Positions 15,359-46,450 of a DNA stretch of 64,000 bases are shown piece by piece. The notes below the pieces were generated by a model. The model was not told the DNA's origin and did not search any database. It worked only from the letters and a program-made list of their open reading frames with translations. Positions within the stretch are counted from its first letter, which is position 1. Every line of letters begins with the position of its first letter. The DNA comes from Bacteroidia bacterium (lineage in GTDB: Bacteria > Bacteroidota > Bacteroidia > M30B66), in NCBI GenBank assembly GCA_965279035.1, contig OZ257142.1:3488001-3552000 (forward strand). The letters run 5' to 3'. The position numbers were made by a program, and so were the translations under genes.

Positions 15359-15485
15359 TAACGCTCCGCGTGCAACTCGTGGTTTGGGAATTGGTTTGCA
15401 GAATGCTTTATTTTAGACGAATATAGCAAGAAAATTGAATTGCTTTAACCTAGCAAAATGCCCAAATCTTGAGTGCACGCTGTTA
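15359..15485. repeat. attC-like repeat 3 (family A)
   Basis: taac...gtta palindrome. Confidence 0.88.
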
Positions 15486-15928
15486 TAAGATGCGCGCCAA
15501 CTCAGCCTATGCGTGACTAGTAAAATTCAATCAAAATAAGCCATTCCAAAATCTTCATTACAAAGAAGCTTTCCCAAAACTCTGAGCAGATTTGATTGCA
15601 TTCTATGCTGAATATAGAATTTGAAAATCTCTAATGCCTTTTCGTCATGCACATTCTCGAGGCCATTTTTTATGGATCTCGCTCACCAAACTAGCAAAGG
15701 CATTTACATTCGATTTCATTCATATAAAATATCAAGCAAACAAAACCGAGATAAATATTTCTGCTGAATTTGAGTTCTGACCTTTTCAATGGCTTATTTT
15801 GAACTTGCAAAATCTAAGGCGATTTTTCCTGTTCGATCCCAACTAAAAACAGTTTTACAAATTGCATGAATAACTCATTTGTGCAAAATGTTGCCGACTT
15901 TGCGGAAGAGATTCGCGTTTCTTATAAC
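15482..15928. repeat. Non-coding cassette X, copy 1
   Basis: gttataagatgcgcg...cgcgtttcttataac; nested inverted repeats; no conserved ORF. Confidence 0.85.
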
Positions 15929-16049
15929 GGTCCGGCGATTTGCGAATGCGCGGAACAGTTTACCCAAATGTATCAAAACAAACGAAATGATTCAATCAGA
16001 AAAATGACTTAGAGAACGAAAATGCCCGCGTATCGCAGATTGCCTGTTA
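15925..16049. repeat. attC-like repeat 4 (family C)
   Basis: taac-ggtcc-ggcgatttgcg...cgcagattgcc-t-gtta. Confidence 0.88.
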
Positions 16050-16430
16050 TTTGATGCGCGCCAAGTCAGATTCAGTTCTAGCAAACTTTCCAAGCAAAAA
16101 AAGCGACTTGAATACACATTCTGAAATAAGGCCAAAAACCATTCTGCAAATATTCTGTGTTTGTCGCCATCAATTCTCTAGTTGATTTCATCAATCCATT
16201 AATTTGATTTTATCAGCAGTTCATTCCAGGCATATGGCGACAAACTTTTCAAAAACCTCTCAAATGGTTTTTGCCTATCCCTCAAATGCCGAGCTTTTTT
16301 TATCAAAAACGATTAGACATTCGTTTATTACTTTATTGTTTCCTGATAGCCGAAACTTCCTTTCGCCTTTAATGAATTATCTGACCACAATGCGAATGGC
16401 GAGTTTGGAAAATTTCGCGTTTCAAATAAC
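16046..16430. repeat. Non-coding cassette Y, copy 1
   Basis: gttatttgatgcgcg...cgcgtttcaaataac; internal IR gtttgtcgccat/atggcgacaaac. Confidence 0.85.
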
Positions 16431-16552
16431 GTTCCGCACACACCTGAAGAGCCAAACGAGGTGAACGAAATGCTTTAGATTAGACGAAAATAACAAGAAA
16501 AACGAACGTCTCAACCTCCCGAAATGCTTGGCTTTTCTGGTGTGTGCTGTTA
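16427..16552. repeat. attC-like repeat 5 (family B)
   Basis: taac...gtta palindrome. Confidence 0.88.
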
Positions 16553-16565
16553 GCCCTTGGCGGTT

Positions 16566-18059
16566 TTATTGTTTAATAAATTTCTTTCCTGAGCGATTGC
16601 CAGTTTTCAAATCTTGTATTTCAATCCAATATATCCCTTGACTTAAGCCATTAATTTCATTTGATAATACAGTTTTTTGATTTTGAATCTGACCTTTCCA
16701 GTGAATTCTTCCAAGCATATCTGAAATAATTGCTTCACAATGTGATGGAATATCTTGTTCAATTATTAAAGAAGATTCAACAGGATTTGGGTATAATTTA
16801 AATCGTATATTTAAATTATTATCGATTGATTGAATACCTGTGCTTAAACTATCACAAATACTTCCTGTTAAAGCACCTAGTCTAAAATTGGCATAATTGG
16901 GAGAAACTTCAATAAATCCATAATTGATTAGATCAAATACTTGAGGTGTAAATCCACAATTTAATGTTGGGTTATTTGGTTGATAGAGAACACTAAGTTT
17001 AGGCTCATATGGATTAGAGGTAAAATCAGTTGTTGGAGAAACGACCCACAAGTTATTGGGAGTTAAACATGGTGCTCCTTGCCCTTCAGCAATAACTGAA
17101 AAAATAGATGTTTCAAAATCGTATTGACATAATTCAATTGTCAAAAATGCATTCATATTAGATCTTCTAAAATACAACTTTGTGCCATCAGGACTTAAAC
17201 AGCAAGCATTAACAGCATCTTCATTAAAATATGAACTCAAATCATGTTCAATCGGATTTGATAATCCTCCAGTACATCGGTCAAAATTATATATATATGC
17301 TTTTCTAACTGAACCGATAATTACGTTTATAAATTTGCCTCCATCACTTGAAAATAGATTCCAACCACCACCCGGTTGGTGGATATGAGGTATAGGTGTA
17401 TAAATTGAGTTAAAATCAAAACCCGAAGGGTTTAATAAAGCTTGATAAAATTTATCCTGATAAATAGTTGATTTCATAATCCACCAATCTCTACCATTTG
17501 CGTGCCTGCATGCGGCAATAGTGCCTGCTGCGCTTGAGTCTAATTCAATAGGATGCTTTCTGATTATAGTCTCAATTTCTGAATCTGTTGTTTTGAATTC
17601 TGAATAATAAAAACTAGTATCAATTCCTAAAATAAATGGATCGTCAAGAATAGGTTTAGAATAGGAATTTAATAAACAATATTTTTGGGAAGAACCAGGA
17701 ACATTCAAAAAAAGTGAGTTTTTAAATCCAAGCGGCATTTCACTAAAATTTCCTGAATAAAAAGAATCAATTATTGCACCTGATGAGTCAAATAAATATT
17801 TGCCATTAAAAACAAGCAAAAGATTACCTAAAGAATCTGAAATTGAAGCAGAACCCTTATTAATTCTGTATTGAAAATTAGCACTTTCTATACTTTCCAG
17901 TCCAGTATTATTAAATTTAAGAACACCACTCCCGTATGGTTCTGGACAGCCATTTTCAGGAGAACATAACCCCCATACCCAGTTATCAGCTTGGCGTTGA
18001 GATAAAAGCTCTGAAAAAGAAGTTAAAGCAAAAACCAAAATAAGTAAATTAAATTTCAT
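16566..18059 (-). CDS. T9SS type A-sorted partner protein
   Basis: Signal peptide, QRQADN, RHANGRDWW, FDRCTG, YPNP CTD. Confidence 0.85.
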   Translation of the reverse strand: MKFNLLILVFALTSFSELLSQRQADNWVWGLCSPENGCPEPYGSGVLKFNNTGLESIESANFQYRINKGSASISDSLGNLLLVFNGKYLFDSSGAIIDSFYSGNFSEMPLGFKNSLFLNVPGSSQKYCLLNSYSKPILDDPFILGIDTSFYYSEFKTTDSEIETIIRKHPIELDSSAAGTIAACRHANGRDWWIMKSTIYQDKFYQALLNPSGFDFNSIYTPIPHIHQPGGGWNLFSSDGGKFINVIIGSVRKAYIYNFDRCTGGLSNPIEHDLSSYFNEDAVNACCLSPDGTKLYFRRSNMNAFLTIELCQYDFETSIFSVIAEGQGAPCLTPNNLWVVSPTTDFTSNPYEPKLSVLYQPNNPTLNCGFTPQVFDLINYGFIEVSPNYANFRLGALTGSICDSLSTGIQSIDNNLNIRFKLYPNPVESSLIIEQDIPSHCEAIISDMLGRIHWKGQIQNQKTVLSNEINGLSQGIYWIEIQDLKTGNRSGKKFIKQ

Positions 18060-18061
18060 GT

Positions 18062-21000
18062 TTATCGTTTAATTAATTTTTCATTCAAAACTTTCAATCC
18101 TGAGTTGTCAAATACCTGAATAAAGTATAATCCTTGAGCAACAGGATTTAAAATGTCAACTTCAAACTCACCAGAAATTCTGAGTGATTTATTATAAATT
18201 AATTGACCCATTGAATTCATAATTTTAATTATAAAATCATTAGATCCAGGCAATAAACTTCTAATAATAAATTTACCAGTTGTTGGATTAGGGTAAATTC
18301 GTAAAAACTGATTCAAGTTATTATTTGAATTTGACATATCAGTTTTAGATAAACGAAACATAACTCCTTGCTGTATACAAACACCATCATCGTTGTATAA
18401 AGCTGTATCATTTATGAGTGCATAAAGGCTTCGTGCTTTGAATACAGCAGAGCCTCCCAAAGCAGGGCACAAATGCGCAATTTCATATAATTCAGAAATT
18501 TGAAATTCATCGAATATTAGATTGTTTTGAGCTACTGTGTTTAAATATATCTTGTTTACTCGTCGCTCAAAATCCTCAAATTCAATATTAGTTACTACCC
18601 CATTATTGTATAAAAAGGAACTATCACGTGCAAATCCTTGTTTATCTAAAACATTGTTGTCTATTAACTCTAATTGTAATTTTAATTGATAAATGATAGT
18701 TACCAAAGCTGCTCGCTGGTTAATTGTTTGTTCATCATCATATAAGTTATCAGCGATAATAGTACTATCAAGAATATCTATTTGACTCATCACTAATTTC
18801 ATTTCCTGTAAATACCCTTTTTTAATTTGATCGGTAGTTTCAGAAGTTTCATTTATAACCTGAGTTTGATCCACATAAACGTAGTTCTGAGCAGGACTTT
18901 GCTGATATGCTTCAATGAATGAAACAAAATTACCAGTATCTGGTAGGATTAGCTCTTGGGAATTTAAAGCTTGGAAAATATCTTTACTAAGTGAGAATTT
19001 TACCGATTCTGTAAACGGGTCAAAAGCAAGAGAATCATACGCCAAAAGTCGAGCTAGGTTTTCCTGATCTTTAACAGAAGCTCCTGTAACGAAAGCAGGT
19101 GCAGAAATTATTGAGCAATATGGTTCTGAAGGAGAATTAAATGAGTTATCGCAATAGAAAAAATCCCCTTCACAAAAACCTGTAAATGGTTGAAAGGGAG
19201 GAAATATTGGATAGATTGTTAAATCTGATGGATTGTGAACTGTAAAGCTGTTTAAAGTCGTATTTGCAGAGTTAGTGCTTTGCCTTCTAGCAGGAGTAAT
19301 AATATAACCGCCAGTCCATTTATTTCCATTGTTTATCTGATTCCCTAAAATTCCAGTTGCTGTTATATCAACACCATATTGATGATTTACAATAGTGTTT
19401 AATTTAAAACTATCAGTTTGGCAATTACCATAAATCTTAAATCCATATCTCGAATTATTTACATAATTATTTTTAATGATGCCATTTCTAGAATTTGTAA
19501 GATTAATTCCAAATTGTCTAGTTGTTGTATTACCATTGATAAAATTACACGAAACCAATGATTTATTTGTATTAGACATGTAAATTCCACCACCTATATC
19601 CCAACTACTATTAAAGAATGTAAAGGGAAGAATTACAATTGTATCGGATTGAATTCTAATTCCCGTTGCTGAATTAACAGATATTCCAAAAGATGATGTT
19701 ATTTTATTTGCAAGAATCGTAGTATATCTCCCCATAAATTGATTTGAAACAAAGATCCCGTTGTTAAATGAAACCTGAGGCAATTGTGAAAAAAGAGGAA
19801 GAGATGTTATTGTATTATAACCAATAGTATCATTTAACATAAAATCACTTTGCATTAGACTAACACCCTGAATCTTTGAAGCAATTTTATTTTTCATTAT
19901 TTTAAAGCTCTTAGCTCTTAAATTCAAACCGCGAACTCCAACATTAACATTATCAAAAGAACAATTTCTCACATGTACATCACTTGCATTTACAAATACA
20001 CCCTTATTACAATTATTAAAATGCGTGTTATTTCCCCAATTATTTGGCTCTAATTGACTAAATCCTCCTACGAACAAAAATGAATTAGTGCTTGCATAAA
20101 TACCGTTTCCACTTACATTATTAAACTGAGAAATTGGACTTATTTGATTATCTAACCAATAACTACTCCCTTGGTAATTTACACCAAATGGCTGGATATT
20201 ATCAAATTTTGATTGATATACTTTTGCATAAGCATATTTATTTAAAATAACACCATTACATAAATTCTTAAATCTACTTCCAGAAGTTACATACAAATTA
20301 TAATAATTGGTAGCAACAATTCCGGCTAAACTATAACCCAAAGGTAAAGGAGATTGATTAGGAAATGTTTGCAATAATTGCCCTCCAATAAAAGAACAAC
20401 TTTTCAAAGCAAGTGGATGCTCGCCTAATTCGTCTCCAGATTTGATAGCAACAAAATTATTTTCGAAAATCGTATTATCTACATTAGAATATGCATTCCC
20501 AAAACGTCTTAGCAAAATGCCATAGTGTGCATCTTTAATATTACAATTACTAATTTTCAATTTTCCCAAATTATTAATACCATTCCACATTTGCTCACAT
20601 CCTTTTAAATTACAAGAGTCCAATTTTAAAGTTCCAGTTACTTTAATTTCTTTCCCCCCAGCAATAGTGATATCACAATTATTAAACTCAAAAATATTAT
20701 CAACAGTTAAACTATGATTCAACTGAATGCATTTATCAGATAATATACTTAACCCCAATGATGTAGCAAGTTGAGAGGTTGTTAAAACATTTGCTGGAAT
20801 AATATATAATGGCGTACCTAAACTATCACAAATTTGACAATTACAAAGTGTATTAGAACTGATAGTTATCGCAGTATCTATACTAACACACCCTGAATCG
20901 TTTGTGAATGAATAAGTCAACATCAATGTATCTGAAATATAACTTGACGGGTCTACTACAAAGCTATTATTTGATAAACCATTAATTGAGAATATACCTC

Positions 21001-24000
21001 CTACTGGTGATACAGAAACTAAATAGTTCATACTTGCACAAATGCTATCACCTAATTGTAAAATATTAGCAGAAGAAATCTCATTAATTGAAACATCAAT
21101 ACTCGCCGTATCAATACACCCACTCAAATGCGAAACTATAACAGTATAGCTAGTATCATTATTTGGAGAATCGTAAGCAATTGAGTTATTAAGGCTATCA
21201 GCGGTCGCGTTCATGCTCCATTGGTATGTATGAGCATTTGTTACTAACGTATCTGTTGCAATAAATGGGTTGCTATTGTTAAAACCAAGATTATTAGTAG
21301 CATTTGAATCAACAGCGTGAAGTGAAATTGGACTACCACCACAAATAGAACTTTGACTGAGAATAATATGAGCTTGCACTCCATGATTTTGAATTTCTAA
21401 TGCATTGAAAACATATATGAGACCACCATTAGTGGTTACTGTTGCAGAATAAAGCCCTTGCTCAACATTTATATTAAGAATTGTGTCTTGAATTGTTAAA
21501 TCGGAAACAAGTAAAATGCTATCCAATTCAATTTTATATAATTGAATGTGCTTATCACTAGAATCAGTAAAATGTAAACTAATAATGCCTAGAGAATCTG
21601 CATTACAAGGATGCTTTAGAGATACTGTCGCTGCAGATTGCAAACAACAATCAGGAGAACCTGCCATAGCAGATATTTGAGACTGAGTTGAAGGCGATGC
21701 GTTATTTATGAAACTTTGTGAAAGGTAATTTGATGTATACAAAGCAGAATCATTACATTCTGTGTAACCAGTAAAGGTTGCTTCTAATATGCGATATAAA
21801 AAGTTACTTTGGAAAACAGAAGGTGATAAATTACATGTTGATTGATCTAGTTTAAATCTTAATGCAAATTGGAGATGAGCTCCGGCGTGAAGTGTATCTA
21901 CAGATGGAAATGCTAATACTAAAACAGTTGTCGGAGGCGTTGGAAAATCTTCAAATTGAAAAGAGTAATTAGGATCAATGGTATCATTGAGATAATTACC
22001 ACTTTGGCTTGACAAAGAATCTCCAGCTAAAAAATACTCAAACGTACTTGAACCAGTATTTAAAATTAAGCCAGAAGGAATGTTAATTAGTAATTTCCCA
22101 TTTACAATATTTGGGCGATTAATAGGATTATCAATATCAATTAACCATGTTAAGTCACAGCCTGAAGAGTCATTATTAATAATTAACTGCGAGCTTCTGT
22201 TTACATAAGCAGTATCACGATGAAAATTAACAATTGAAGTCCCCCCAAAACATTGAGGAGCTCTATTAACATTCTCTTTAAAAACTTCGAATGAATCAGT
22301 TATACAAAAGCATCCATAGTTTAAAGAAAGTCTATAATTATCAATGCCACAAACAACCGGAATAGCTAATTGTGTTGACATACTGTCTATTGGAAAACCA
22401 TTTTGAAAAAAATGATAAACAACTCCAAGTGAATCAATAACACTTAATGAATCATTCAAAAATGGTATTGTCGGGGAAAAAGGATTTATTGTTACAGGTA
22501 AATTAGGTGCGTTCGGCAGTAAACTTGAAACACCGTAACTCAACCAACAATTACCTATTTGTAATGAATCAGGCGATTTAATATGAAGATCAAAATGGAC
22601 TGAATCCGATTCAGCAATTCCTTGTATTTGATTAGGCATAGGTAATCCTAGAAACAATCCATTAAATACATTAGGGGAAGTATATATCCAATATGGTGTT
22701 TTAACTTTTTGAATATCAAATTGACTATGATTTGATACATCAACCGAATCATAAAATGAATAATCAACAAGCCGTAAAGAATCAACTACATATAAATAAG
22801 TTGGTATAAAATCTGAATCAATATAGTTTAAAGGGGATATGTAGGCAAAATCATAAAACGGGAGTTTGTGTGGTATTGTATCATTCCCGCTTGAACAAAA
22901 TTTGTTTGCTTTTATATAAATGTCCTGAAAGCCAGGTTTCTCAAGAGGATGCAAAAATGTTTGATTAGGATACCAAAGTTTTCTAAGTGTATCTGAATAA
23001 ACTAATGTATCTGTTCCATTTTCAATTGCAAAACCTTCAATAAAATTGCTTGAATATGCAGTATCTGCATATCCAATAAATGGTCGAAACTCATATGGAA
23101 AATCATCCATAAAGGTTCCTAAACCTCCAGAAAGCCGAATCTTAAAATGTGCTTCTGATATACAATGAGATGTAGAATCGTTTTGTGTAATGATTGAAAT
23201 CGACTTGTTGGGTACTAAAACTTTTAACTGAGTTCCCCAAGGATCGCAGCTATAAGTTGTCAATTGCGAATCCATATTAGTAGAACAGATAAATTGCCCT
23301 CTAAATAATACCGGATTTATTGGAGTTGTTACATCAGGTAGAACCCAAAATTCTGCATTAAGTCTGAGTTTATATGAATGAGTATTGATTGAATTGAGTT
23401 GAGGGAGTGCTGATAAGTTATCAATACCTAATTCAAAACTATAAAGTGTATCTCCACTCATTCCAAATACACTTGAATTATTGGGATTAATATTTTGAAC
23501 AATCAATGGAACTGAAAAAGAATCAGCAGCAATTGAATCTATAAAATAAAGTTCCGAATTCTTTAATTTTAACAATGGTTGATCACCAATTATTGTATGA
23601 GCTAATTCAAATGAAATATTTTGAAATTCAAATGTTTCACTACTACCATTGACTGTTAAATCAGGATAAGAGACCAAAGTCCCAATTGAAGATAATTTAA
23701 CAATATCAAATGGATATAGCTTGGTTAATTCATTACTAATTATAGATTCTCTTAGTATGCTTGGTAATGAAGGATTTGAAATATCAATTAATGAATCAAT
23801 ATGCAATGTTAATTCATCCCTTGATAATATAGGAGTATTAGGAAAATCAGTAGTATCACGAAAACCAAAGGTTGATCTTTCCAAATTTACACTCTTTGTT
23901 CCCATTGGTACAAATCCATCACATTCTCCCGGACAATGTGCAACTACATTCAAAGTATTGCATGCAAGTGTTTTATAACATTCTTCACACGAAGCGCAAA

Positions 24001-25942: not shown

Positions 25943-26094
25943 ACTGATTAAATTAAATTACTAAATGAGATTGGGGGCTAATTACTTTACCTTTCAGCTA
26001 AAATATAAAATCCTTTCAAATAGACAACAATTGTTCAAAAGTTTGTTTATAAGTCCTGTTTGATTCACCTGAAACGGGAACAACCGCTTAGGGC

Positions 26095-26220
26095 TAACGT
26101 TCCGCACACACCTGAAGAGCCAAATGAGGCGAACGAAATGCTTTAGATAAGACGAATATAACAAGAAAAACGAATGCCTCAAACTCCCGAAATGCTTGGC
26201 TTTGCTGGTGTGTGCTGTTA
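26095..26220. repeat. attC-like repeat 6 (family B)
   Basis: taac...gtta palindrome. Confidence 0.88.
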
Positions 26221-27127: not shown

Positions 27128-27134
27128 TGCTATT

Positions 27135-33724: not shown

Positions 33725-33729
33725 CTATT

Positions 33730-36695: not shown

Positions 36696-36698
36696 CTT

Positions 36699-36968
36699 TT
36701 ATTCATAATTACCATCATCCAAAACTTCCAGAGCGATGCCATAAGCTTCAAAGGAATCAGGTGCGATAAGCTCACGTTTACCCGCCTTTTCACCATAAAT
36801 ATTGTCGTCCTCATCGATTACTATCGTGTCATACAAGGAAAACAACTTCTCAACTTCCTCATCGAAATCTTCATAATTAGGAAAGCCGTCATCATCTGTA
36901 AATAGTTGAAACTGATCTCCATCATTGAAGATATAAAATTGTGCTTTGTTTAGTTTTAATTCTCTCAT
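36699..36968 (-). CDS. Small acidic hypothetical protein upstream of the Y2 transposase
   Basis: 89 aa, about 25 D/E residues, identical in 3 copies, 3 bp from the transposase start. Confidence 0.7.
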   Translation of the reverse strand: MRELKLNKAQFYIFNDGDQFQLFTDDDGFPNYEDFDEEVEKLFSLYDTIVIDEDDNIYGEKAGKRELIAPDSFEAYGIALEVLDDGNYE

Positions 36969-37026
36969 AATGTATGTTGTATAAATTGATAATCTTATAA
37001 TGGTAACGCGATAAAAGCATTACGTA

Positions 37027-37150
37027 CAACGTTCCGCGGCTTTGCGATGAGCGGAATAGTTTAACGCAATGCTTTAGATTAAACGAATGTAACAAGTTAG
37101 AACGATGATTCAAAGTTGCAGAATATCCGCTTATCGCAAAACCGCTGTTA
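37027..37150. repeat. attC-like repeat 12 (variant family)
   Basis: caac-gttcc-gcggctttgcgatgagcgga...tccgcttatcgcaaaaccgc-t-gtta. Confidence 0.85.
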
Positions 37151-37692
37151 GCTGTGAGTAAGGTTACGCCCGTTATTGGTTTCCGCAAATTTCTATGAAA
37201 TAAAAGCATTTGAACTTTCCTGTTTCATTGCAAAAGAAGCGATTACGATTTCTTAAATTCAGTTTTTCTTTCAAGCACAATGTATTTTGGTTTCTCAAAA
37301 GATGCGACTTCAGTTTTCTATGTCAAGATTGTATTTCTAGTTATCGTGAAATCTAAAATCAAAATCAGTCGCATCATCGTTCAATAACTAGTGAACTTGA
37401 TCTCGAAAAACTGAATTCTGTTTTAGTTTGTTCCAGCAAAAACATTCATAGAATTTTTAGCCAATCTGTTTCTGCAATGTTTCTATTGAAATCAAGAACA
37501 AACTAAAAAATGGAAAATATCCATTCGCTGAGTTTTGCTGTCTATTCTGCTTCACCGCTTTTATTGAAAACTTGTTATAGGCATTTTGGCGAGCTTAATT
37601 TTACAAGACAAGCAAATGCCGCGAAAGTCCGAAATAGTTCATTCTAGCAAGTGCCGATGCCGGCTGAGATAGCAAACCTTATTACAGCTAAC
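37147..37692. repeat. Non-coding cassette Z, copy 1
   Basis: gttagctgt...acagctaac; internal IR ttttagtttgttc/gaacaaactaaaa. Confidence 0.8.
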
Positions 37693-38957
37693 CTTTAGAC
37701 TTGCAGTCAAAGATTTTAGCTGATAAATTTACCATAAATAAATGTAGTTAACCGAAAGCAGGGCGACCTATGCGCTAACAAGGATAATAGGCCTATGGAA
37801 CGATATAGTGCCCTACTTTCTGGTTATTTAAGCCTCAGATAGATATTCGGGATTCAGGCCCATTATAAAGGTTTTGAGGTACAAATAACCATTGGTTAAT
37901 CCGTTTTGCTAATTATAAAATTATGAATTCAAACCAGAACAACCAAAAACATTTTGTAGGAACAGATGTTTCAAAAGAAACACTTGATGTAACGATCTTT
38001 TTCAACTCCTCAATGCATTTTCATCAGCAATTTTCAAATGACAGCAAGGGCTTTAAGCAATTGCTGAAATGGCTAGAAACCTATCCTGAATTCAGTTTTG
38101 AAAATACTTTATTCTGCATGGAACATACAGGAATTTACACTCGTCAGTTTGTTGAATTCCTCCTTTCGAAAGAAGCAAAGGTATGGATGGAGTCGGCACT
38201 GCATTTAAAGCGTTCTATGGGCATGACAAGGGGCAAAAGTGATAAGATCGATTCACTGCGAATTGCACGCTATGCAATGACTCATCAGGACCAAGCCAGG
38301 CTCGTAAATCTTTCCAATAAAACATTGTTGCTTATCAAAGACCTTATGAGTGCAAGAGAGCGGAGTAAAAAGGCCTACCAGTCCATAAAAGTCTCCATTG
38401 ATGAAATGCAAAGAGTCGATGCAGCAACAGCAAAAGAGCTCTTGAGGATTAATAAACCAGCCCTTTCTGGATTATTGAAAAGCAAGATGGCGTTGGAAAA
38501 ACGGATGATGGAATTAATAGCGATGGATCCTGAACTGAACGAGCTATTTGAGCTGGTTACTTCTGTCAAAGGTGTGGGTAATGTATTGGCAACCGAACTG
38601 ATTGTTTATACACATGCATTTAAAAGAATGGATGAAGCCAAACAACTGGCCTGCTATTGCGGAGTCGCTCCTTTTTCTCATACTTCCGGCACGAGTGTGC
38701 ATGGAAGAAATGGAACTTCAAACTTTGCTAACATGGGACTTAAATCAACTTTACACTTGGCTGCACTTTCTTCAATTCGTTACGTACCTGAGCTTAAAAC
38801 ATATTATCAGAGGAAAGTAGCTGAGGGAAAATCCAAAATGAGCGTAATTAATGCCGTGCGGAATAAACTGTTGCAACGTGTCTTAGCAGTGGTAAAAAGA
38901 GGAACGCCTTACCAAGAAAATTATCAAGTAAATTAATTTGGAAAACTCATAGATATC
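37693..38957 (+). mobile_element. IS110-family element, copy 2
   Basis: Same 1265 bp element at TAAC|GTTCC. Confidence 0.93.
37923..38936 (+). CDS. IS110 recombinase
   Basis: Identical to 5468-6481. Confidence 0.95.
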   Translation: MNSNQNNQKHFVGTDVSKETLDVTIFFNSSMHFHQQFSNDSKGFKQLLKWLETYPEFSFENTLFCMEHTGIYTRQFVEFLLSKEAKVWMESALHLKRSMGMTRGKSDKIDSLRIARYAMTHQDQARLVNLSNKTLLLIKDLMSARERSKKAYQSIKVSIDEMQRVDAATAKELLRINKPALSGLLKSKMALEKRMMELIAMDPELNELFELVTSVKGVGNVLATELIVYTHAFKRMDEAKQLACYCGVAPFSHTSGTSVHGRNGTSNFANMGLKSTLHLAALSSIRYVPELKTYYQRKVAEGKSKMSVINAVRNKLLQRVLAVVKRGTPYQENYQVN

Positions 38958-39079
38958 GTTCCGCACACACCTGAAGAGCCAAACGAGGTGAACGAAATGC
39001 TTTAGATTAGACGAATATAACAAGAAAAACGAATGCCTCAAACTCCCAAAATGCTTGGCTTTGCTGGTGTGTGCTGTTA
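38957..39079. repeat. attC-like repeat 13 (family B), IS110-interrupted
   Basis: Its TAAC is at 37689-37692. Confidence 0.85.
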
Positions 39080-39525
39080 TAAGATGCGCGCCAACTCAGC
39101 AAATGCGTGACTAGCAATGTTCAATCAAAATAAGCCATTCCAAAATCTTCATTACAAAGAAGCTTTCCCAAAACTCTGATCAGATTTGTTTGCATTCTAA
39201 GCTGAATATAGAATTTGAAAATCTCTAATGCCTTTTCTTCATACTCATTCTCGAGGCCATTTTTTATGGATCTCGCTCACCAAAATAGCAAAGGCATTTT
39301 CATTCGATTTCATTCTAGTAAAATATCAAGCAAACAAAGCCGTGAAAAATATTTCTGCTGAATTTGAGTTCTGCGCTTTTCAATGGCTTATTTTGAATTT
39401 GTAAAATCTAAGGCGATTTTTTACTATTCGATTCCAGCTAAAAATAGCTTTTGCAAATTGTCTAGAAAATCTATTTGTGCAAAATGATAGCCGACTTTGC
39501 GGAAGAGATTCGCGTTTCTTATAAC
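39076..39525. repeat. Non-coding cassette X, copy 4
   Basis: Homologous to copy 1. Confidence 0.85.
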
Positions 39526-39646
39526 GGTCCGGCGATTTGCGAATGCGCGGAACAGTTTACCCAAATGTATCAAAACAAACGAAATGTTTCAATCAGAAAA
39601 ATGACTTAGAGAAAGATAATGCCCGCGTATCGCAGATTGCCTGTTA
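39522..39646. repeat. attC-like repeat 14 (family C)
   Basis: taac...gtta palindrome. Confidence 0.88.
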
Positions 39647-40027
39647 TTTGATGCGCGCCAAGTTCGATTCAGTTCTAGCAAAGTTTCCATGCAAAAAAAG
39701 CGACTTGAATACACATTCTGAAATAAGGCCAAAAACCATTCATCAAATTTCCTGTGTTTGTCGCCATCAATTCTCTGGTTGATTTCATCAATCCATTAAT
39801 TTGATTTTATCAGCAGTTCATTCCAGGCATATGGCGACAAACTTTTCAAAAACCTCTCAAATGGTTTTTGCCTTTCCCTCAAATGCCGAGCTTTTTTTAT
39901 CAAGAGCGATTAGACATTCGTTTATTACTTTATTCTTTTCTGATAGCCGAAACTTTCTTTCGCCTTTTATGAATTATCTGATCACAATGCGAATGGCGAG
40001 TTTGGAAAATTTCGCGTTTCAAATAAC
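39643..40027. repeat. Non-coding cassette Y, copy 3
   Basis: Homologous to copy 1. Confidence 0.85.
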
Positions 40028-40148
40028 GGTCCGGCGATTTGCAGATGCGCGGAACAGTTTACTCAAATGTATCAAAACAAACGAAATGCTTCAATCAGAA
40101 GAATGATTTAGAGAACGAAAATGCCCGCGTATCGCAAATTGCCTGTTA
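40024..40148. repeat. attC-like repeat 15 (family C)
   Basis: Copy of repeat 10. Confidence 0.88.
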
Positions 40149-40594
40149 TAAGATGCGCGCCAACTCAGCCAATGCGTGACTAGCAATGTTCAATCAAAAT
40201 AAGCCATTTCAAAATCTTCATCACAAAGAAGCTTTCCCAAAACTCTGATCAGATTTGTTTGCATTCTAAGCTGAATATAGAATTTGAAAATCTCTAATGC
40301 CTTTTCTTCATACTCATTCTCGAGGCCATTTTTTATGGATCTCGCTCACCAAAATAGCAAAGGCATTTTCATTCGATTTCATTCTAGTAAAATATCAAGC
40401 AAACAAAGCCGTGAAAAATATTTCTGCTGAATTTGAGTTCTGCGCTTTTCAATGGCTTATTTTGAACTTGTAAAATCTAAGGCGATTTTTTACTATTCGA
40501 TTCCAGCTAAAAATAGCTTTTGCAAATTGTCTAGAAAATCTATTTGTGCAAAATGATAGCCGACTTTGCGGAAGAGATTCGCGTTTCTTATAAC
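40145..40594. repeat. Non-coding cassette X, copy 5
   Basis: Nearly identical to copy 3. Confidence 0.85.
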
Positions 40595-40716
40595 GTTCCG
40601 CACACACCTGAAGAGCCAAATGAGGTAAACGGAATGCTTTAGAATAGACGAATATAACAAGAAAAAAGGATGACTCAAACTCCCGAAATGCTTGGCTTTG
40701 CTGGTGTGTGCTGTTA
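40591..40716. repeat. attC-like repeat 16 (family B)
   Basis: taac...gtta palindrome. Confidence 0.88.
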
Positions 40717-40754
40717 CCTGCTGGGGCTTGTTCTTCAATATTCAGCTCTTTACC

Positions 40755-41630
40755 CTATTTATTATCTTTCGATATTCTTTTCAACCAATCCTTTGCTCCT
40801 GTTTTTGATTCCCAAATTCTCTTTGATTGGCTCACGTAATAATCTGCTTCTTCCTCACTTCCCGATGTGTATCCGTCCGAATCGAAAATAGAATCCCTTC
40901 TTGAATTCAGTTTCTTTGCAACATACTTGTTTTGTTTAATTGCTTTTCTTAGCAATGTCTCAGAATTCTTTGTTTCTCCTTCATTTATAAATGCAAACAA
41001 GGCTCTATTAAAAAGAGCAAAAGTCATAAAATCATTCTTAAATTGTTTGTCATACTTTGTGAACTTAGACTTGTCTTCAACTTCAATCAAATACAAAAGC
41101 AGTTGATCTCGAATTCCTTGATTGTCATTCGGATTTAATTCAATCATTTCCTCAAAGACCTCTATTGATTCTTGAATTTTGTTCAATTCATACAAACAGT
41201 TTGCGTGTAAATGCATGCAGCGCATAAACGGTCTTGTCTCATGCAACAACCAAAAGTGTCCTTTATTCTCTTTGAAATACTTGGCACCGAATTTTTTCCT
41301 TCCTATGGAAATTCCTTTCTCATAAAATGCATCTGAAATCGGAGGGAAATCATTTATATTACCAAGAAATTCATACGCTTCAATACAGTCAGAATCCAAT
41401 TCAAGCGCCTCCATTACTTTTTCAAATCCTATTCTTGGATCAAAATCATATGCACTTAATACCAAGTCAATGGCTTTTTCCTCATTTGTCAAAGTCTCCT
41501 CTGGAAAAGATGGCAATTCAGTTCCAACCAAACTATTCATGAAATCTCTCAATTCCTTTTCCGTTTTGAAATCCTTTGTTGATAGAAGTCTTTGAAAGTC
41601 TATCATTGCTTTTTCATGTTGTTTACCCAT
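40755..41630 (-). CDS. TPR-like helical protein
   Basis: W...ETRPFMR and LNPNDNQGIR motifs; helical repeats. Confidence 0.7.
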   Translation of the reverse strand: MGKQHEKAMIDFQRLLSTKDFKTEKELRDFMNSLVGTELPSFPEETLTNEEKAIDLVLSAYDFDPRIGFEKVMEALELDSDCIEAYEFLGNINDFPPISDAFYEKGISIGRKKFGAKYFKENKGHFWLLHETRPFMRCMHLHANCLYELNKIQESIEVFEEMIELNPNDNQGIRDQLLLYLIEVEDKSKFTKYDKQFKNDFMTFALFNRALFAFINEGETKNSETLLRKAIKQNKYVAKKLNSRRDSIFDSDGYTSGSEEEADYYVSQSKRIWESKTGAKDWLKRISKDNK

Positions 41631-41660
41631 AATCTGATGTCATTTTTTTGCCCTTGCAGG

Positions 41661-41785
41661 TAACGGTCCGGCGATTTGCAGATGCGCGGAACAGTTTACT
41701 CAAATGTATCAAAACAAACGAAATGCTTCAATCAGAAGAATGATTTAGAGAACGAAAATGCCCGCGTATCGCAAATTGCCTGTTA
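41661..41785. repeat. attC-like repeat 17 (family C)
   Basis: Copy of repeat 10. Confidence 0.88.
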
Positions 41786-42231
41786 TAAGATGCGCGCCAA
41801 CTCAGCAAATGCGTGACTAGCAATGTTCAATCAAAATAAGCCATTCCAAAATCTTCATTACAAAGAAGCTTTCCCAAAACTCAGAGCAGTTTTGTTTGCA
41901 TTCTAAGCTGAATATAGAATTTGAAACTCTATAATGCCTTTCCTTCATTCTCATTCTCGAGGCCATTTTTTATGGATCTCGCTTACCAAAATAGCAAAGG
42001 CATTTTCATCCGATTACATTCTAGAAAAATATCAAGCAAATAAAACCGAGATAAATATTTCTGCTGAATTTGAGTTCTGCCCTTTTCAATGGCTTATTTT
42101 GAACTTACAAAATCTAAGGCGATTTTTTACTATTCGATTCCAGCTAAAAATAGCTTTTGCAAATTGTCTAGAACATTAATTTGTGCAAAATGACAGCCGA
42201 CATTGCGGAAGAGATTCGCGTTTCTTATAAC
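41782..42231. repeat. Non-coding cassette X, copy 6
   Basis: Homologous to copy 1. Confidence 0.85.
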
Positions 42232-42354
42232 GGTCCGCGTGCAACTCGAGGTTTGGGAATTGGTTAGCAGAATGCTTTAATTTAGACGAATATAGCAAGA
42301 AAATTAAAATGATTTAACTAAGCACAATGCCCAAATCTTGAGTGCACGCTGTTA
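42228..42354. repeat. attC-like repeat 18 (family A)
   Basis: taac...gtta palindrome. Confidence 0.88.
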
Positions 42355-42735
42355 TTTGATGCGCGCCAAGTCCGATTCATTTTCCCTCAAGTTTCCAAGC
42401 AAAAAAAGCGACTTGAATACACATTCTGAAATAAGGCCAAAAACCATTCTGCAAATATTCTGTGTTTGTCGCTATCAATTCTCTAGTTGATTTCATCAAT
42501 CCATTAATTTGATTTTATCAGCAGTTCATTCCAGGCATATGGCGACAAACTTTTCAAAAACCTCTCAAATGGTTTTTGCCTTTCCCTCAAATGCCGAGCT
42601 TTTTTTATCAAGTGCGATTAGACATTCGTTTATTACTTTATTGTTTCCTGATAGCCGAAACTTCCTTTCGCCTTTAATGATTAATCTGACAACAATGCGA
42701 ATGGCGAGTTTGGAAAATTTCGCGTTTCAAATAAC
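42351..42735. repeat. Non-coding cassette Y, copy 4
   Basis: Homologous to copy 1. Confidence 0.85.
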
Positions 42736-42857
42736 GTTCCGCACACACCTGAAGAGCCAAACGAGGTGAACGAAATGCTTTAGATTAGACGAATATAACA
42801 AGAAAAACGGATGCTTCAAACTCCCGAAATGCTTGGCTTTGCTGGTGTGTGCTGTTA
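42732..42857. repeat. attC-like repeat 19 (family B)
   Basis: taac...gtta palindrome. Confidence 0.88.
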
Positions 42858-42876
42858 TATGCAGCTGAAATTTATT

Positions 42877-43146
42877 TTACGGAAACTTCTTGTAGATATC
42901 TTTTCTATGCAAAATCGTAATCAATCTAATTTCATTTGAACTAATTAGTTCTAACCCGATTCTATAGTCACCGATTTTTATTCTGTAGTATACAGTAAAA
43001 CCGATAAGCTTTTTGGTGTTTGATATTTGCTCGAGAACTTCAGCTTCTTCTGCTTTTTGAATAACTGATTCAATTCTTTTTAGGACACTTTTATCCTTGA
43101 TTTTATCAAGAGCTTTAATGAATGATTTGTCAAATCTGACTATCAT
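42877..43146 (-). CDS. RelE/ParE family toxin
   Basis: F.K.L.K...YRIKIGDYRIG...HRKDIY; basic, 89 aa. Confidence 0.88.
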   Translation of the reverse strand: MIVRFDKSFIKALDKIKDKSVLKRIESVIQKAEEAEVLEQISNTKKLIGFTVYYRIKIGDYRIGLELISSNEIRLITILHRKDIYKKFP

Positions 43147-43340
43147 TTCTTCTTGAGTTTTTGAAAAACTTCTTCTCTAGAAGCATCTATTCCAGTTTTC
43201 TCAGAATCGATGATTGTTCCCAAAAGAAAGTCTTCATATTGATTATCTTTCAGACTAACAACATTAGCACCTAGTCTCTTTGCTAACTCTTTGAGAATCT
43301 TATTACTCTTGTCGTCTGCTTTAATTATAATGGCGCTCAT
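43143..43340 (-). CDS. Putative antitoxin
   Basis: 65 aa, ATGA overlap with the toxin. Confidence 0.78.
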   Translation of the reverse strand: MSAIIIKADDKSNKILKELAKRLGANVVSLKDNQYEDFLLGTIIDSEKTGIDASREEVFQKLKKK

Positions 43341-43359
43341 AGCGAATGTTTCTTTACTT

Positions 43360-43367
43360 CAAAAGTA
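43360..43367 (-). promoter_or_regulatory. Bacteroidota -7 promoter box of the TA cassette
   Basis: TACTTTTG (TAnnTTTG) about 20 nt upstream of the antitoxin ATG. Confidence 0.6.
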
Positions 43368-43459
43368 ATCAATATTCTTGAAGTTTTCTAAATGTAATTC
43401 TTGTGTCTCAATTATTCTAGTGTAATGCTGATTAGCTAACGGATGGCTTCAGTTGCATA

Positions 43460-43585
43460 TAACGGTTTCGGGCTTGGCGAAGGTGGCGATTTTCACCACA
43501 AATGTTGATGCGGAGAACCAAACTTTGATTAACCACAAATGTGTCTGCGGAGCACTGAACCGCCACTTTTGCCAAACCCGTGTTA
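43460..43585. repeat. attC-like repeat 20 (family E)
   Basis: taac-ggttt-cgggcttggcgaaggtggcg...cgccacttttgccaaacccg-t-gtta. Confidence 0.88.
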
Positions 43586-43619
43586 CCAGCCGTTTTTCTA
43601 TCTGTCAAACTCGTTGAAG

Positions 43620-44339
43620 TCATTTTTTTGTTATGAATTTCATAAAGGTTGAAGTCAGGTCAATGATAAATTCTATTTCCTTTTCGTTTACATTGTCATC
43701 GTGCTTGGCATATTTATTTTGATATTTCCCGTAATAGTCCAAAAGGGTATTAAACATATTTGTCGTTTCAGGACTTATACCTTTAGCTTGCTGAAATTGT
43801 CCTACGTCTGCAATTTGTTTTTCTAAAGGCTTATCATTGTTAAGAACCTCCTTTAAAAGTAACTCTAATGAAAGTCTCAAATCGTCAATTAAATTTCTTT
43901 GGTAAACATTCTTATTCAACTTGTCTAAGGAAGAGTTATATAATTCAAAAGCCTTTTTATAAGTAGAAAGCCAATGTTGAGTTTCCTTTACAAGTTCAGT
44001 TGTAAGAATATGTTGTCCGCTTGGAATATACTCAGGGTATTGCGAATACAATTTGTTTTTTAAATCCTTTACACTGTCAAGATGTTGAAGCCTATCAATA
44101 GTCTCGGAAATAATTTCAAATTGTTGGTCAGCGTTAAAACGTTTCAAATTTTCAAGAAATGCTGTTCTTTTATTAGGAACATCAACAAAAGGAGGCTTAT
44201 GGAATGGAATATCTACATTGTAATCCAAACTTTTGGCTGAGAAATACTTGCCAATTTCAGTTGAAGTAAGTCCCGTATTGGTGTCTGCCAATATATCCGA
44301 TGCGTATGTTAGGAAAACATTATTTATTGGTTTCTTCAT
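43620..44339 (-). CDS. Hypothetical protein, possibly abortive-infection (AbiJ/Abi_C-like)
   Basis: Helical; C-terminal YQNKYAKH resembles a degenerate HEPN motif; family call is tentative. Confidence 0.5.
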   Translation of the reverse strand: MKKPINNVFLTYASDILADTNTGLTSTEIGKYFSAKSLDYNVDIPFHKPPFVDVPNKRTAFLENLKRFNADQQFEIISETIDRLQHLDSVKDLKNKLYSQYPEYIPSGQHILTTELVKETQHWLSTYKKAFELYNSSLDKLNKNVYQRNLIDDLRLSLELLLKEVLNNDKPLEKQIADVGQFQQAKGISPETTNMFNTLLDYYGKYQNKYAKHDDNVNEKEIEFIIDLTSTFMKFITKK

Positions 44340-45840
44340 TTTCAGTTTGCTCGTTTTGTTTTACTTCTTCGTTGATTGCGTTATCAACTCTAGCTTCATT
44401 TTCAACTTCTTCTTTTGCACCAACTCTTTTGAAAGTTATGCTACTCTTATCTTTAATTGATACGAGTATTAAATCATCTTGATTGATTTTTTCGATTTTG
44501 TAAAACAGTTCTTTATTTGGATAGGAAAGATTGACGGTATTTCCTTTATCTGTAAATTTTACAACACCTTTTGAAACTTTATCATTAATAATTTCAATGA
44601 AGGTGTGTTTGCCCAAAAAGGAATGTTCAAAAAAGAATATTTGCTCTTGGTATGAAGTATTTTTCCAACGTTTCCCGAACAAGTTCAAATTTCTGAAATA
44701 CTTTGGTTTTGAAAATAAACCAATTAATAATAATAGTAAGATTGTCCCAATTGATACGCCTAAATAGGTGAAAAATTCTTTGTTTATTGCAGTGTCATTT
44801 TCTGTGATTTCATAGTGTTTCCCATAACTTGAATAATATACTGCCCAATCTTCCGTATTTATGTTTGCACTGTGGTCGTCAGAACTGTTCCAAGAAGGGG
44901 CGAAAATTCCAGAAGAAGAATATTGCTTTGGACTAGTGTTGTCCATATAGAAATATTCGTTTCTAATGTCGGAGAAGTTGGAAATGTCAACATATTTTCC
45001 AGGCGTGTATGCTCCTGATGATTTCTTATCGTCTTTTGTAAAATACTCAAAAGCTTCTGTGTAGCATTGTCGAACTGGCAACCTGTAATTACTTGAATAA
45101 TAACCTCCACCAACTTTCATTTTTTCACCCCACCCCATATCCATATATTCAGGTTCTACATATCTTCCAGATGATTTTTTATAACCCATATCACCTGATG
45201 AAAAAGTTTCTACATCATAACCGTCATCATTTTGTTTTGTGAGTTGCTTTATTGTGAAACCACCACTGGATGCTTTATAAATAGTGTAAAGCTTTTCTCG
45301 TTCCCACCAATCTTGGAAAAGGCTTGAATATCCGTCATCGTTTTTATTTTTTGATTTTGAATATCCTGTTTCTTCAAGCTCACCTTGTGTCAAGGAATGA
45401 ATACCGTCAAGAACAACAGTTTTGCCGTCAAGAATATTGTCAACCTTTGAGTAAATCTCTTTTTTCAATTTCTGCTTTTTGTTATTTGAAATTAAATATG
45501 CGGAGAGAGCAGCGGCTCCAATTAACAAAAAAGCTACTGAATATATTTTGAATGAAGCCCAAAATTTCACATTGCTATCTTCTACAAGAATTTTCTTTTC
45601 TTCTTTGGCTTCATCTTGAACTTGAATTGTTGAATTTGTCGAGTTGTCAATAATTGGAGGTGGAGGCGGTGTTTTTTTGAGAAGTCCTTTAAGTTCTTCT
45701 ACTTCCTTAACTGGTTTCCAATTTTCAAAACCGTCAGCCCAAACTAAGGTATCGGGTTTCAAACCAACTGTCCTTAGTTGGTCAATGCTAAAAGGTCCTT
45801 TTTGTTCCTTTTCGTCTAAGTAATAAAATTCTTTTTCCAT
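44320..45840 (-). CDS. GYF_2 (DUF4339) domain membrane protein
   Basis: N-terminal QKGPFS...L...TLVW..G...W, proline linker, two TM segments. Confidence 0.8.
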   Translation of the reverse strand: MEKEFYYLDEKEQKGPFSIDQLRTVGLKPDTLVWADGFENWKPVKEVEELKGLLKKTPPPPPIIDNSTNSTIQVQDEAKEEKKILVEDSNVKFWASFKIYSVAFLLIGAAALSAYLISNNKKQKLKKEIYSKVDNILDGKTVVLDGIHSLTQGELEETGYSKSKNKNDDGYSSLFQDWWEREKLYTIYKASSGGFTIKQLTKQNDDGYDVETFSSGDMGYKKSSGRYVEPEYMDMGWGEKMKVGGGYYSSNYRLPVRQCYTEAFEYFTKDDKKSSGAYTPGKYVDISNFSDIRNEYFYMDNTSPKQYSSSGIFAPSWNSSDDHSANINTEDWAVYYSSYGKHYEITENDTAINKEFFTYLGVSIGTILLLLLIGLFSKPKYFRNLNLFGKRWKNTSYQEQIFFFEHSFLGKHTFIEIINDKVSKGVVKFTDKGNTVNLSYPNKELFYKIEKINQDDLILVSIKDKSSITFKRVGAKEEVENEARVDNAINEEVKQNEQTENEETNK

Positions 45841-45880
45841 ACTGTCAATTTTATTCGTGTCTGTCTTTTAAAATGGCTGG

Positions 45881-46007
45881 TAACGCTCCGCGTGCAACTC
45901 GAGGTTTGGGAATTGGTTTGCAGAATGCTTTAGTTTAGACGAATATAGCAAGAAAATTAAAATGATTTAACTAAGCACAATGCCCAAATCTTGAGTGCAC
46001 GCTGTTA
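45881..46007. repeat. attC-like repeat 21 (family A)
   Basis: taac...gtta palindrome. Confidence 0.88.
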
Positions 46008-46450
46008 TAAGATGCGCGCCAACTCAGCCAATGCGTGAAAAGCAAAGTTCAATCAAAATAAGCCATTTCAAAATCTTCATCACAAAGAAGCATTCCCAAA
46101 ACGCTGAGCAGATTTGTTTGCATTCTAAGCTGAATATAGAATTTGAAAATCTCTAATGCCTTTTCTTTATACTCATTCTCGAGGCCATTTTTTATGGATC
46201 TCGCTCACCAAAATAGCAAAGGCATTTTCATTCGATTTCATTCTAGTAAAATATCAAGCAAACAAAGCCGTGAAAAATATTTCTGCTGATTTTGACTTCT
46301 GCCCTATTCTTGGCTTATTTTGAACTTGCAAAATCTAAGGCGATTTTTTCTATTCGATTCCAGTTAAAATAGCTTTTCCAAATTGACTGAAAAATTCATT
46401 TGTGCAAAATGATAGCCGACTTTGCGGAAGAGATTCGCGTTTCTTATAAC
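46004..46450. repeat. Non-coding cassette X, copy 7
   Basis: Homologous to copy 1. Confidence 0.85.

What the first reader, a model, noticed from the sequence alone, without database searches (positions are those of the whole stretch)
15482..46450. Non-coding cassette X: seven copies of a ~450 nt nested hairpin
Seen: no ORF is conserved across copies. Nested IRs include the terminal stem, tcaaaataagccatt (15531-15545) / aatggcttattttga (15788-15802), aatgccttt (15633-15641) / aaaggcatt (15696-15704) and an apical ccat-tttt-atgg. It is the most abundant cassette in the window. Inference: a structured ncRNA, or a selfish non-autonomous ssDNA element whose fold brings the two cassette ends together and favours its own amplification.
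Basis: partly seen in the sequence, partly recalled or inferred. Interest (0 to 1): 0.8.

Follow-up and report, generated by a model that had tools for sequence, protein, structure and literature searches.

The report
Gene-less folding cassettes that swap hairpins
Seven copies of a gene-free 450-base unit, plus seven relatives with the same build, make up nearly half of a bacterial integron-like gene array and sit beside different recombination-like hairpins; they are likely passengers whose predicted single-strand fold helps them get cut out and copied, although an RNA product is not excluded.

Summary
The seven copies (447-450 nt, 89-100% alike) and the named inverted repeats are real. X is the body of a gene-less cassette in an integron-like array of a Bacteroidota genome (32 hairpin sites, 31 bodies, no recombinase motif in the window). 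The terminal stem is not special: coding cassettes have it too. What is special: X, a 385-nt family Y (5 copies) and a family Z (2 copies) share a left arm and a 9-bp A-rich stem placed 51-53 nt and 125-131 nt from the two ends, with paired changes at two positions between families (a 9-bp repeat at this place in 14 of 14 gene-less bodies, 0 of 17 coding). Within X there is no covariation, coding signal, promoter consensus or Rfam match, and no RNA data. X sits beside three different hairpin types on both sides, and two identical HNH cassettes also carry different hairpins, so bodies and hairpins appear to be exchanged separately. Best reading (0.45): a selfish-like passenger acting as folded single-stranded DNA; structured RNA 0.3. 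Multi-copy gene-less cassettes are known from Vibrio; the shared geometry and hairpin swapping were not found in the papers searched.

The parts
15482..15928 (.). X1 gene-less cassette body (GTT..AAC)
27900..28348 (.). X2 body
34698..35147 (.). X3 body (identical to X5)
39076..39525 (.). X4 body
40145..40594 (.). X5 body
41782..42231 (.). X6 body
46004..46450 (.). X7 body
15531..15802 (+). X1 folded core, closed by the 15-bp stem 15531-15545 / 15788-15802, which contains the 9-bp stem shared with Y and Z (15533-15541 / 15792-15800)
15633..15704 (+). X1 inner 9-bp stem and apical hairpin, invariant in 7 of 7 copies
34807..34960 (+). additional 9-bp stem (shown in X3; perfect in 4 of 7 copies)
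15360..15484 (+). type A hairpin site, left (inferred own) site of X1
27778..27902 (+). type A site left of X2; identical to the sites at 14277 (left of HNH body) and 28346 (left of Y2)
34578..34700 (+). type B site left of X3; identical to 40025 and 41662 (left of X5, X6)
38955..39078 (+). type C site left of X4, IS110 inserted at its AAC end
40025..40147 (+). type B site left of X5
41662..41784 (+). type B site left of X6
45882..46006 (+). type A site left of X7
15926..16048 (+). type B site right of X1; holds a Bacteroidota promoter consensus on the - strand (15965-15995) that points into X1
16046..16430 (.). Y1 gene-less body, same geometry as X
28468..28852 (.). Y2 body
39643..40027 (.). 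Y3 body
42351..42735 (.). Y4 body
49500..49884 (.). Y5 body
37147..37692 (.). Z1 gene-less body, followed by IS110
46568..47036 (.). Z2 gene-less body, followed by IS110
14399..15362 (-). HNH cassette body, copy 1 (control for hairpin exchange; sites A and A)
48420..49383 (-). HNH cassette body, copy 2, identical over 964 nt but with sites C and B
6500..61312 (.). the whole array in the window: 32 hairpin sites of 122-125 nt in one orientation, 31 bodies; it continues past the last site

Best explanation
X is the gene-less body of a cassette in an integron-like array and one of three related families (X, Y, Z; 14 of 31 bodies); it likely spreads as a selfish passenger of a tyrosine recombinase encoded outside the window, and its predicted single-strand DNA fold would help its two ends meet for excision. 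Steps. Shown: alternating 122-125-nt hairpins and bodies whose ends pair over 15 bp; no coding signal; a 9-bp stem at fixed distances from both ends in X, Y and Z; duplication (X3 = X5 with the same left hairpin); different hairpin types on both sides of near-identical bodies. Inferred: the + strand is the recombining strand and the left hairpin is the cassette's own; because neighbouring bodies' ends do not match, the 15-bp end stem can form in the array only by long-range pairing of a body's own ends; the closing stem loops out a 205-367-nt core and leaves about 180 nt between the ends; excision plus replicative reinsertion yields copies; occasional cutting of the other strand would hand a body its neighbour's hairpin.
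For: Array anatomy and 9-10-bp ends; 15-bp end stem with a G.T pair at position 11 in 13 of 18 distinct end pairs; + strand folds better in 31 of 32 sites; a phage-contig array with the same D-type sites has a 267-aa tyrosine recombinase at its head, which fixes the polarity by analogy (L087). Fixed geometry in 14 of 14 gene-less bodies, 0 of 17 coding bodies, 0 of 89 bodies in phage and plasmid loci, chance 7-17 in 3000 per family. Arm lengths stay constant while the core varies from 205 to 367 nt, and X and Y cores are not alike (p 0.53). The core folds as DNA on both strands (z -2.1 to -3.9, 5 of 5 X copies tested). No own promoter box in 13 of 14 bodies. Left site differs in type in 15 of 21 X pairs, right in 16 of 21; contigs of three other studies join X to three different left sites. 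Vibrio non-coding cassettes are also multi-copy and lineage-limited, and selfishness was one of two proposals (PMC1382264, passages).
Against: End pairing is predicted just as well for the 7 coding bodies tested. In IntI1 assays excision fell consistently only for cassettes of 1,500 bp or more (PMC5371416, passages), so compacting 450 nt may gain little. A pure parasite could drop the core, yet the two innermost stems never vary and the inner stems vary less than the rest. With only the end stem removed, whole-body RNA z-scores are weak (-0.5 to -1.3 for 3 of 3 X copies, 15 shuffles). The outer stem is broken without compensation in X2, X7 and in two metagenome copies. No recombinase was seen in this genome, and no excised circle was observed. 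The geometry window was defined after seeing X and Y.
Confidence: 0.45

Rival explanations
1. The core (267-272 nt in X, 205-207 in Y, 292-367 in Z) is a structured non-coding RNA, closed by a stem between its 5' and 3' ends, and the cassette is an RNA-gene cassette kept in many copies for dosage or for phage defence.
For: Core RNA z-scores -2.6 to -5.3 on + for 5 of 5 X copies tested (boundaries chosen around the stem); inner stems conserved and the three inner stems unchanged in the metagenome contigs of runs X5 and X6; paired changes at two positions of the closing stem between families; type B sites right of X1, X3 and X4 carry a full promoter consensus pointing into X; a cassette-borne sRNA is known in Xanthomonas (10.1101/2025.06.18.660453, passages).
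Against: 0 of 56 pairs covary within X; RNAalifold covariation term is unfavourable, +2.37; no Rfam match; no own promoter box; the strand that folds better as RNA (+, 7 of 8 bodies) is opposite to the type B promoters; 3 of 7 copies have no type B site upstream; X and Y cores are dissimilar.
Confidence: 0.3
2. Neutral filler: decayed cassettes multiplied by drift, with inverted repeats perfected by template switching at quasi-palindromes (mechanism recalled, not read here) rather than by selection.
For: No compensatory change within X and four uncompensated breaks of the outer stem; copies are mosaics; some Vibrio gene-less cassettes are decayed genes (PMC11014356, Discussion read); the two cross-family paired changes lie in A/T runs.
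Against: The same stem at the same distances in three families that are otherwise far apart; X found at over 90% identity in three other studies; no protein homologue of the frames tested.
Confidence: 0.13
3. Promoter or regulatory cassette, as in Vibrio and Treponema, that drives or tunes the next gene.
For: Most of 29 Vibrio gene-less cassettes had promoter activity (PMC11014356, abstract), and a section heading there says such promoters cannot be found in silico; X lies directly upstream of a coding body in 5 of 7 cases (17 of 31 bodies are coding, so this is near expectation).
Against: TAnnTTTG occurs in 1 of 14 gene-less bodies, whereas 9 of 10 type B sites carry the full consensus in gene direction, so promoters seem to lie in the hairpins; a promoter needs no long-range stem.
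Confidence: 0.12

Closest known systems
Paralogous non-coding cassettes of Vibrio chromosomal integrons (Boucher et al. 2006, PMC1382264, passages read)
   Same: Gene-less, full-length conserved, 84-89% identical paralogues, up to 49% of an array, limited to one lineage; selfish, promoter and RNA roles proposed.
   Different: Here the sites are not canonical attC and no IntI is seen; a fixed-geometry closing stem shared by three families and exchange of hairpin type are not mentioned in the passages read.
Gene-less promoter cassettes of Vibrionaceae (Blanco et al. 2024, PMC11014356; abstract and Discussion read)
   Same: Size (335-515 bp between sites), AT-rich, no long ORF.
   Different: X lacks the host's promoter box; the consensus lies in type B hairpins instead; activity untested.
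Integron cassette and attC site, CALIN (PMC5027507, PMC5371416, PMC9024848; passages read)
   Same: AAC..GTT hairpins in one orientation, complementary cassette ends, non-coding strand folds better, genes mostly on one strand, IS110-family insertions at the sites.
   Different: Ends pair over 15 bp instead of 7; a 4-nt one-sided bulge and a G.T pair follow AAC; the recombinase beside a related array scores 156 bits against a cut-off of 265 for integron integrase; near-identical bodies change site type on both sides, although canonical top-strand use is about 1000-fold rarer.
MITEs and REP/REPIN hairpin repeats (recalled; not read)
   Same: Non-autonomous, multi-copy, structured, possible dependence on a HUH enzyme (an IS91 transposase cassette is in the array).
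   Different: All copies in the window are bounded by cassette junctions; no target duplication at the closing stem; no similarity to the IS91 cassette ends.

Membership tests
Gene-less integron-type cassette | Bounded by recombination-site hairpins with GTT/AAC cores and complementary ends | tested here: met
Gene-less integron-type cassette | No functional ORF | tested here: met
   22 non-synonymous to 3 synonymous changes in the one open ATG frame; no homologue; one 81-codon frame in X6 includes 243 bp, above the 150-210-bp limits used in Vibrio papers
Gene-less integron-type cassette | Moves as a unit, junctions at the core triplet | tested here: met
   different neighbours begin exactly at GTT and AAC; excision itself not observed
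Classical integron (IntI, attI, attC) | IntI-family integrase linked to the array | tested here: inconclusive
   no tyrosine recombinase motif in the window, array runs past the window, no genome held; related array L087 has a recombinase below the TIGR02249 cut-off
Classical integron (IntI, attI, attC) | Canonical attC fold: 7-bp R box, unpaired central spacer, extrahelical bases | tested here: not met
   folds show AAC, G.T pair, 4-nt one-sided bulge, then the stem; ends pair over 15 bp
Classical integron (IntI, attI, attC) | A cassette keeps its own attC | tested here: not met
   4 of 5 multi-copy families have more than one left-site type; IS91 cassette keeps its site in 3 of 3
Structured non-coding RNA family | Covariation in predicted helices | tested here: inconclusive
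   0 of 56 pairs within X, 51 never vary; two paired differences between X, Y, Z
Structured non-coding RNA family | Match to a described family | tested here: not met
Structured non-coding RNA family | Discrete transcript | not testable with these tools
   no RNA holder listed
Promoter cassette | Host promoter consensus in the body | tested here: not met
   1 of 14 bodies has TAnnTTTG
Promoter cassette | Reporter activity | not testable with these tools
   needs a bench assay
MITE | Terminal inverted repeats with target duplication, copies outside cassette context | tested here: inconclusive
   no duplication flanks the closing stem; all 7 copies are cassettes; rest of genome not held
Type I toxin-antitoxin locus | Conserved short hydrophobic ORF under a 5'-3' paired mRNA | tested here: not met
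   no ORF of 15 codons or more with conserved start, stop and codon pattern in X; shorter ORFs not tested

The most novel reading that the evidence does not exclude
These Bacteroidota arrays are two-part systems: bodies with 15-bp paired ends and free-standing hairpins are cut at both junctions, so any body can pick up a new hairpin. The gene-less X/Y/Z family would be a fast-moving, self-folding shuttle that multiplies the lineage's own hairpins (one type carrying a promoter) and passes them to incoming or newly made bodies. That would give a direct, testable route for how cassettes get their recombination site and how arrays come to share site types.
Probability: 0.25. Interest if true: 0.8.

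Novelty: new variant of a known kind. Interest (0 to 1): 0.5.

Why it matters
The role of multi-copy gene-less cassettes has been open since 2006 (PMC1382264), and cassette genesis is still named as a gap (PMC12901181, Discussion passages). This array offers three diverged families with one conserved stem to mutate, and identical bodies with different hairpins, so both questions can be tested in one plasmid assay. Integrons are reported as nearly absent from Bacteroidetes (PMC9024848, passages), so such arrays are probably overlooked. If X proves a neutral filler, the finding is an ordinary case of paralogous non-coding cassettes.

Tried and rejected
No whole genome is held, so genome-wide copy number and the recombinase could not be checked; summed contig depths are not copy numbers and were not used. 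Homologue searches: a 17-base end pattern gave 21 loci in GTDB genomes and 27 in JGI metagenomes, a 16-base one 3 in IMG/VR; none had similarity beyond the pattern or a hairpin site beside it, so all were dropped as chance. An internal 24-mer found 0 viral contigs. blastn of X, of Y with its sites and of Z2 found nothing in plasmids or (X only) phages; 0 of 31 sampled genomes of another phylum and 0 of 3 Bacteroidota plasmids matched; 3 of 36 virus records gave only 23-28-nt hits, dropped. These blanks do not show absence: exact patterns miss diverged ends and no Bacteroidota genome set could be searched. No RNA holder listed; run X9 ('RNA? probably DNA') covered hairpin sites and part of Y, not X: no evidence either way. 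Run X10 gave only 35-38-nt patches under 90%, dropped. Joints that 'skip' X have 29-32-nt sides and unknown letters between; read as other cassettes between the same hairpins, not as empty sites. The single phmmer hit P0001 is a tandem-repeat protein, dismissed. Subterminal pairing looked stronger in gene-less bodies but overlaps with coding ones and follows G+C: not used. No near-identical body pair with both sites was found among 51 bodies in phage and plasmid loci, so hairpin exchange could not be tested there. X is not a decayed hairpin site (no profile hit). IS91 transposase as the mover: no sequence shared with X ends; no relatives in IMG/VR. 6S-like, retron-like and bridge-RNA-like readings were considered from memory and found no support (no Rfam hit; no reverse transcriptase among 35 proteins scanned). 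Homologous recombination as the cause of hairpin exchange is disfavoured because types A, B, C are only 46-62% alike and share about 5 nt at the junction, but it is not excluded.
Full report
1. Observation. blastn of the first copy finds seven full-length copies. The 15-bp repeat is perfect in 5 of 7 copies (p 0.002-0.006 against 500 dinucleotide shuffles), 13 bp in X7 and 10 bp in X2; none of 47 coding windows has more than 11 bp. X1 with its ends folds better than shuffles on both strands (z -2.3 to -4.1). Without the 16-nt ends the RNA signal is weak for X2, X3 and X7 (z -0.5 to -1.3, 15 shuffles). For the 280-nt core alone it is clear (RNA + -2.6 to -5.3, RNA - -0.9 to -4.5, DNA -2.1 to -3.9; 5 of 7 copies tested, 40 shuffles), but those boundaries were chosen around the stem.

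2. Setting. T9SS sorting domains in 3 of 35 proteins scanned point to Bacteroidota; 'Flavobacteriales' comes only from an earlier AI note. A profile search finds 32 hairpin sites of 122-125 nt, all in one orientation, between 6500 and 61312. They separate 31 bodies that begin with GTT and end with AAC. 28 of 31 bodies have 9-10 bp of complementary ends, one has 7, and two are interrupted by IS110. The end pairing runs to 15 bp, with a G.T pair at position 11 in 13 of 18 distinct end pairs; in 46 end pairs from phage and plasmid loci, selected on positions 1-9 and 11, positions 12-15 pair in 45, 46, 45 and 35 cases. So the terminal stem of X is the ordinary grammar of this system. The + strand folds better in 31 of 32 sites, and most cassette genes lie on the - strand, as in integrons. 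No tyrosine recombinase motif is in the window. A D-type site pattern found 36 virus loci; one (L087) has a 267-aa tyrosine recombinase at the head of its array that scores 156 bits against the integron-integrase cut-off of 265. By analogy the left hairpin is a body's own. Patterns of the type A/C and type B sites found 0 virus contigs.

3. X is not coding. One ATG frame on + is open for 48-81 codons in all seven copies, but it ends at four different lengths, has 22 non-synonymous to 3 synonymous changes, and has no relative among 5.8 billion proteins and one spurious repeat hit among 1.84 billion. No Rfam family reaches its threshold in the window, nor anything credible at loose E-values over X4-X7, Y3, Y4, Z1 and Z2. 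The Bacteroidota -7 box TAnnTTTG (PMC7641319, PMC10309648, passages) occurs in 1 of 14 gene-less bodies. In contrast 9 of 10 type B sites hold TTG-N20-TAnnTTTG on the - strand (the -33 spacing is recalled); three of them point into X1, X3 and X4.

4. X has relatives in the same array. Y (5 x 385 nt) and Z (546 and 469 nt) are also gene-less (Z frames of 80 codons or more were screened only through). Their left arms (positions 17-70) resemble X and each other in 6 of 6 pairs (p 0.003, the floor for 300 shuffles); cores are alike for X-Z (p 0.010, 0.003) but not X-Y (0.53); right arms only for Y1-Z2 and Z1-Z2. All share a 9-bp stem, AAWAWAAGC with its complement, starting 51-53 nt from the left end and ending 125-131 nt from the right end; it is perfect in 13 of 14 bodies and encloses 205-367 nt. 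Between families both arms change together at two positions. A repeat of 9 bp or more at this geometry is found in 14 of 14 gene-less and 0 of 17 coding bodies, in 0 of 89 bodies from phage and plasmid loci, and in 7-17 of 3000 shuffles per family. The geometry was set after seeing X and Y, and the paired changes lie in A/T runs, so this is suggestive, not proof. Y and Z cores are nested too (11-14-bp repeats).

5. Covariation inside X is absent. Of 56 pairs in five helices 51 never vary and none changes on both sides; the RNAalifold covariation term is +2.37. Inner stems vary less than the rest (6 of 84 against 71 of 326 columns, Fisher p 0.0016; partly circular, copies not independent). Contigs from one freshwater and two peat metagenomes (3 of 4 runs laid) hold X at over 90% identity; their changes spare the three inner stems but break the outer stem without compensation at one position in X5 and at three in X6 (low-depth contigs, X6 in two pieces).

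6. Bodies and hairpins are exchanged separately. Left sites of X1-X7 are A, A, B, C, B, B, A; right sites B, A, B, B, C, A, B. Types are 46-62% alike. Left type differs in 15 of 21 X pairs and 6 of 10 Y pairs; two HNH bodies with 0 differences in 964 nt have left sites 62% and right sites 47% alike; X3 and X4 differ by 4 nt yet have B and C. One identical type A sequence is the left site of HNH, X2 and Y2. Against this, the IS91 cassette keeps its left site in 3 of 3 copies, and X3 and X5 share theirs, as the classical model predicts. The switch lies at the GTT, where types share about 5 nt. Single contigs from three other studies join X to type A, type B and a hairpin end not found in the window, which argues against an assembly artefact for X; the HNH junctions were not checked against reads. 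In integrons top-strand recombination happens at the other core (PMC5027507, passages) and is about 1000-fold rarer (PMC5371416, passages); such events between two sites would give exactly this exchange without inversion (inference).

7. Mechanism. Best (0.45): a passenger family moved by the array's recombinase. In the array a body's 15-bp end stem can form only with its own other end; the closing stem would loop out the core and leave about 180 nt, easing this pairing and so excision and copying. Weak points: equilibrium folding predicts end pairing for all 19 short bodies, 7 of them coding; length mattered in IntI1 assays mainly above 1,500 bp (PMC5371416); and a conserved core is more than a parasite needs. 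Rivals: RNA cassette 0.3, neutral filler 0.13, promoter cassette 0.12.

8. Known and new. Multi-copy, lineage-limited non-coding cassettes are described in Vibrio (PMC1382264, passages), and many are promoters (PMC11014356, abstract and Discussion). X works like those but fails the classical tests of attC fold and fixed site. Nine paper searches listed no title or abstract start on Bacteroidota gene-less cassettes, a shared closing stem or hairpin exchange; the library lacks most subscription journals, and I read no supplements, where cassette tables of PMC11014356 and PMC9024848 may bear on this. 10.1101/2024.07.02.601686, 10.1101/2025.06.18.660453 and PMC12901181 were read as passages only. 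Earlier AI notes of this scan describe the same kind of array, multi-copy gene-less cassettes and two swap points in other genomes; they are leads, not support, and show that the system itself is not unique to this window. No look-alike of X or Y was in those notes.

9. Verdict. Real, non-coding, structured in its core; new variant of a known kind; interest 0.5. Function is untested.

Noticed in passing
type B sites 15926, 34578, 35145, 39523, 40025, 41662, 49381, 49882, 51765: 9 of 10 type B hairpin sites carry a full Bacteroidota promoter consensus on the - strand, in gene direction; the tenth (46448) keeps only the -7 box.
   Followed up: partly
5238-6499, 37693-38954, 47037-48298: Three IS110-family copies, each inserted at the AAC end of a type C site (3 of 7 type C sites), like IS1111-attC elements (name seen in a reference list, biology recalled).
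   Followed up: partly
35266-37030, 50003-51767, 51886-53649: An IS91-family transposase with a small upstream ORF is itself packaged as a cassette, three copies, two in tandem.
   Followed up: partly
16549-26098 and 6621-14279: Very large bodies (9.5 and 7.7 kb) with T9SS-secreted proteins; the genes of the 7.7-kb body face the opposite way to the rest and are interrupted by IS3 and IS4 copies; its right part is duplicated at 2970-5237.
   Followed up: no
53647-61312 against 6500-51888: D-type sites, also common in phage contigs, dominate the right end and flank only coding bodies there; types A, B, C and all gene-less bodies lie to the left.
   Followed up: partly
X-Y pairs at 15482-16430, 27900-28852, 39076-40027, 41782-42735: Y follows X in 4 of 5 Y copies, with the hairpin between them alternating B, A, B, A.
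   Followed up: partly
42854-43463; 58485-61191; 14399-15362: RelE/ParE-type toxin-antitoxin cassette, HNH plus C5-methyltransferase cassette and HNH cassettes: likely addiction and defence cargo.
   Followed up: no
49381-49502: A type B site whose left half matches the 35145 variant and right half the 15926 variant: a chimera within one type.
   Followed up: no
L087:3064-3864 (- strand): 267-aa tyrosine recombinase directly after the first cassette of a D-type array in a virus-classed contig, below the IntI cut-off.
   Followed up: partly
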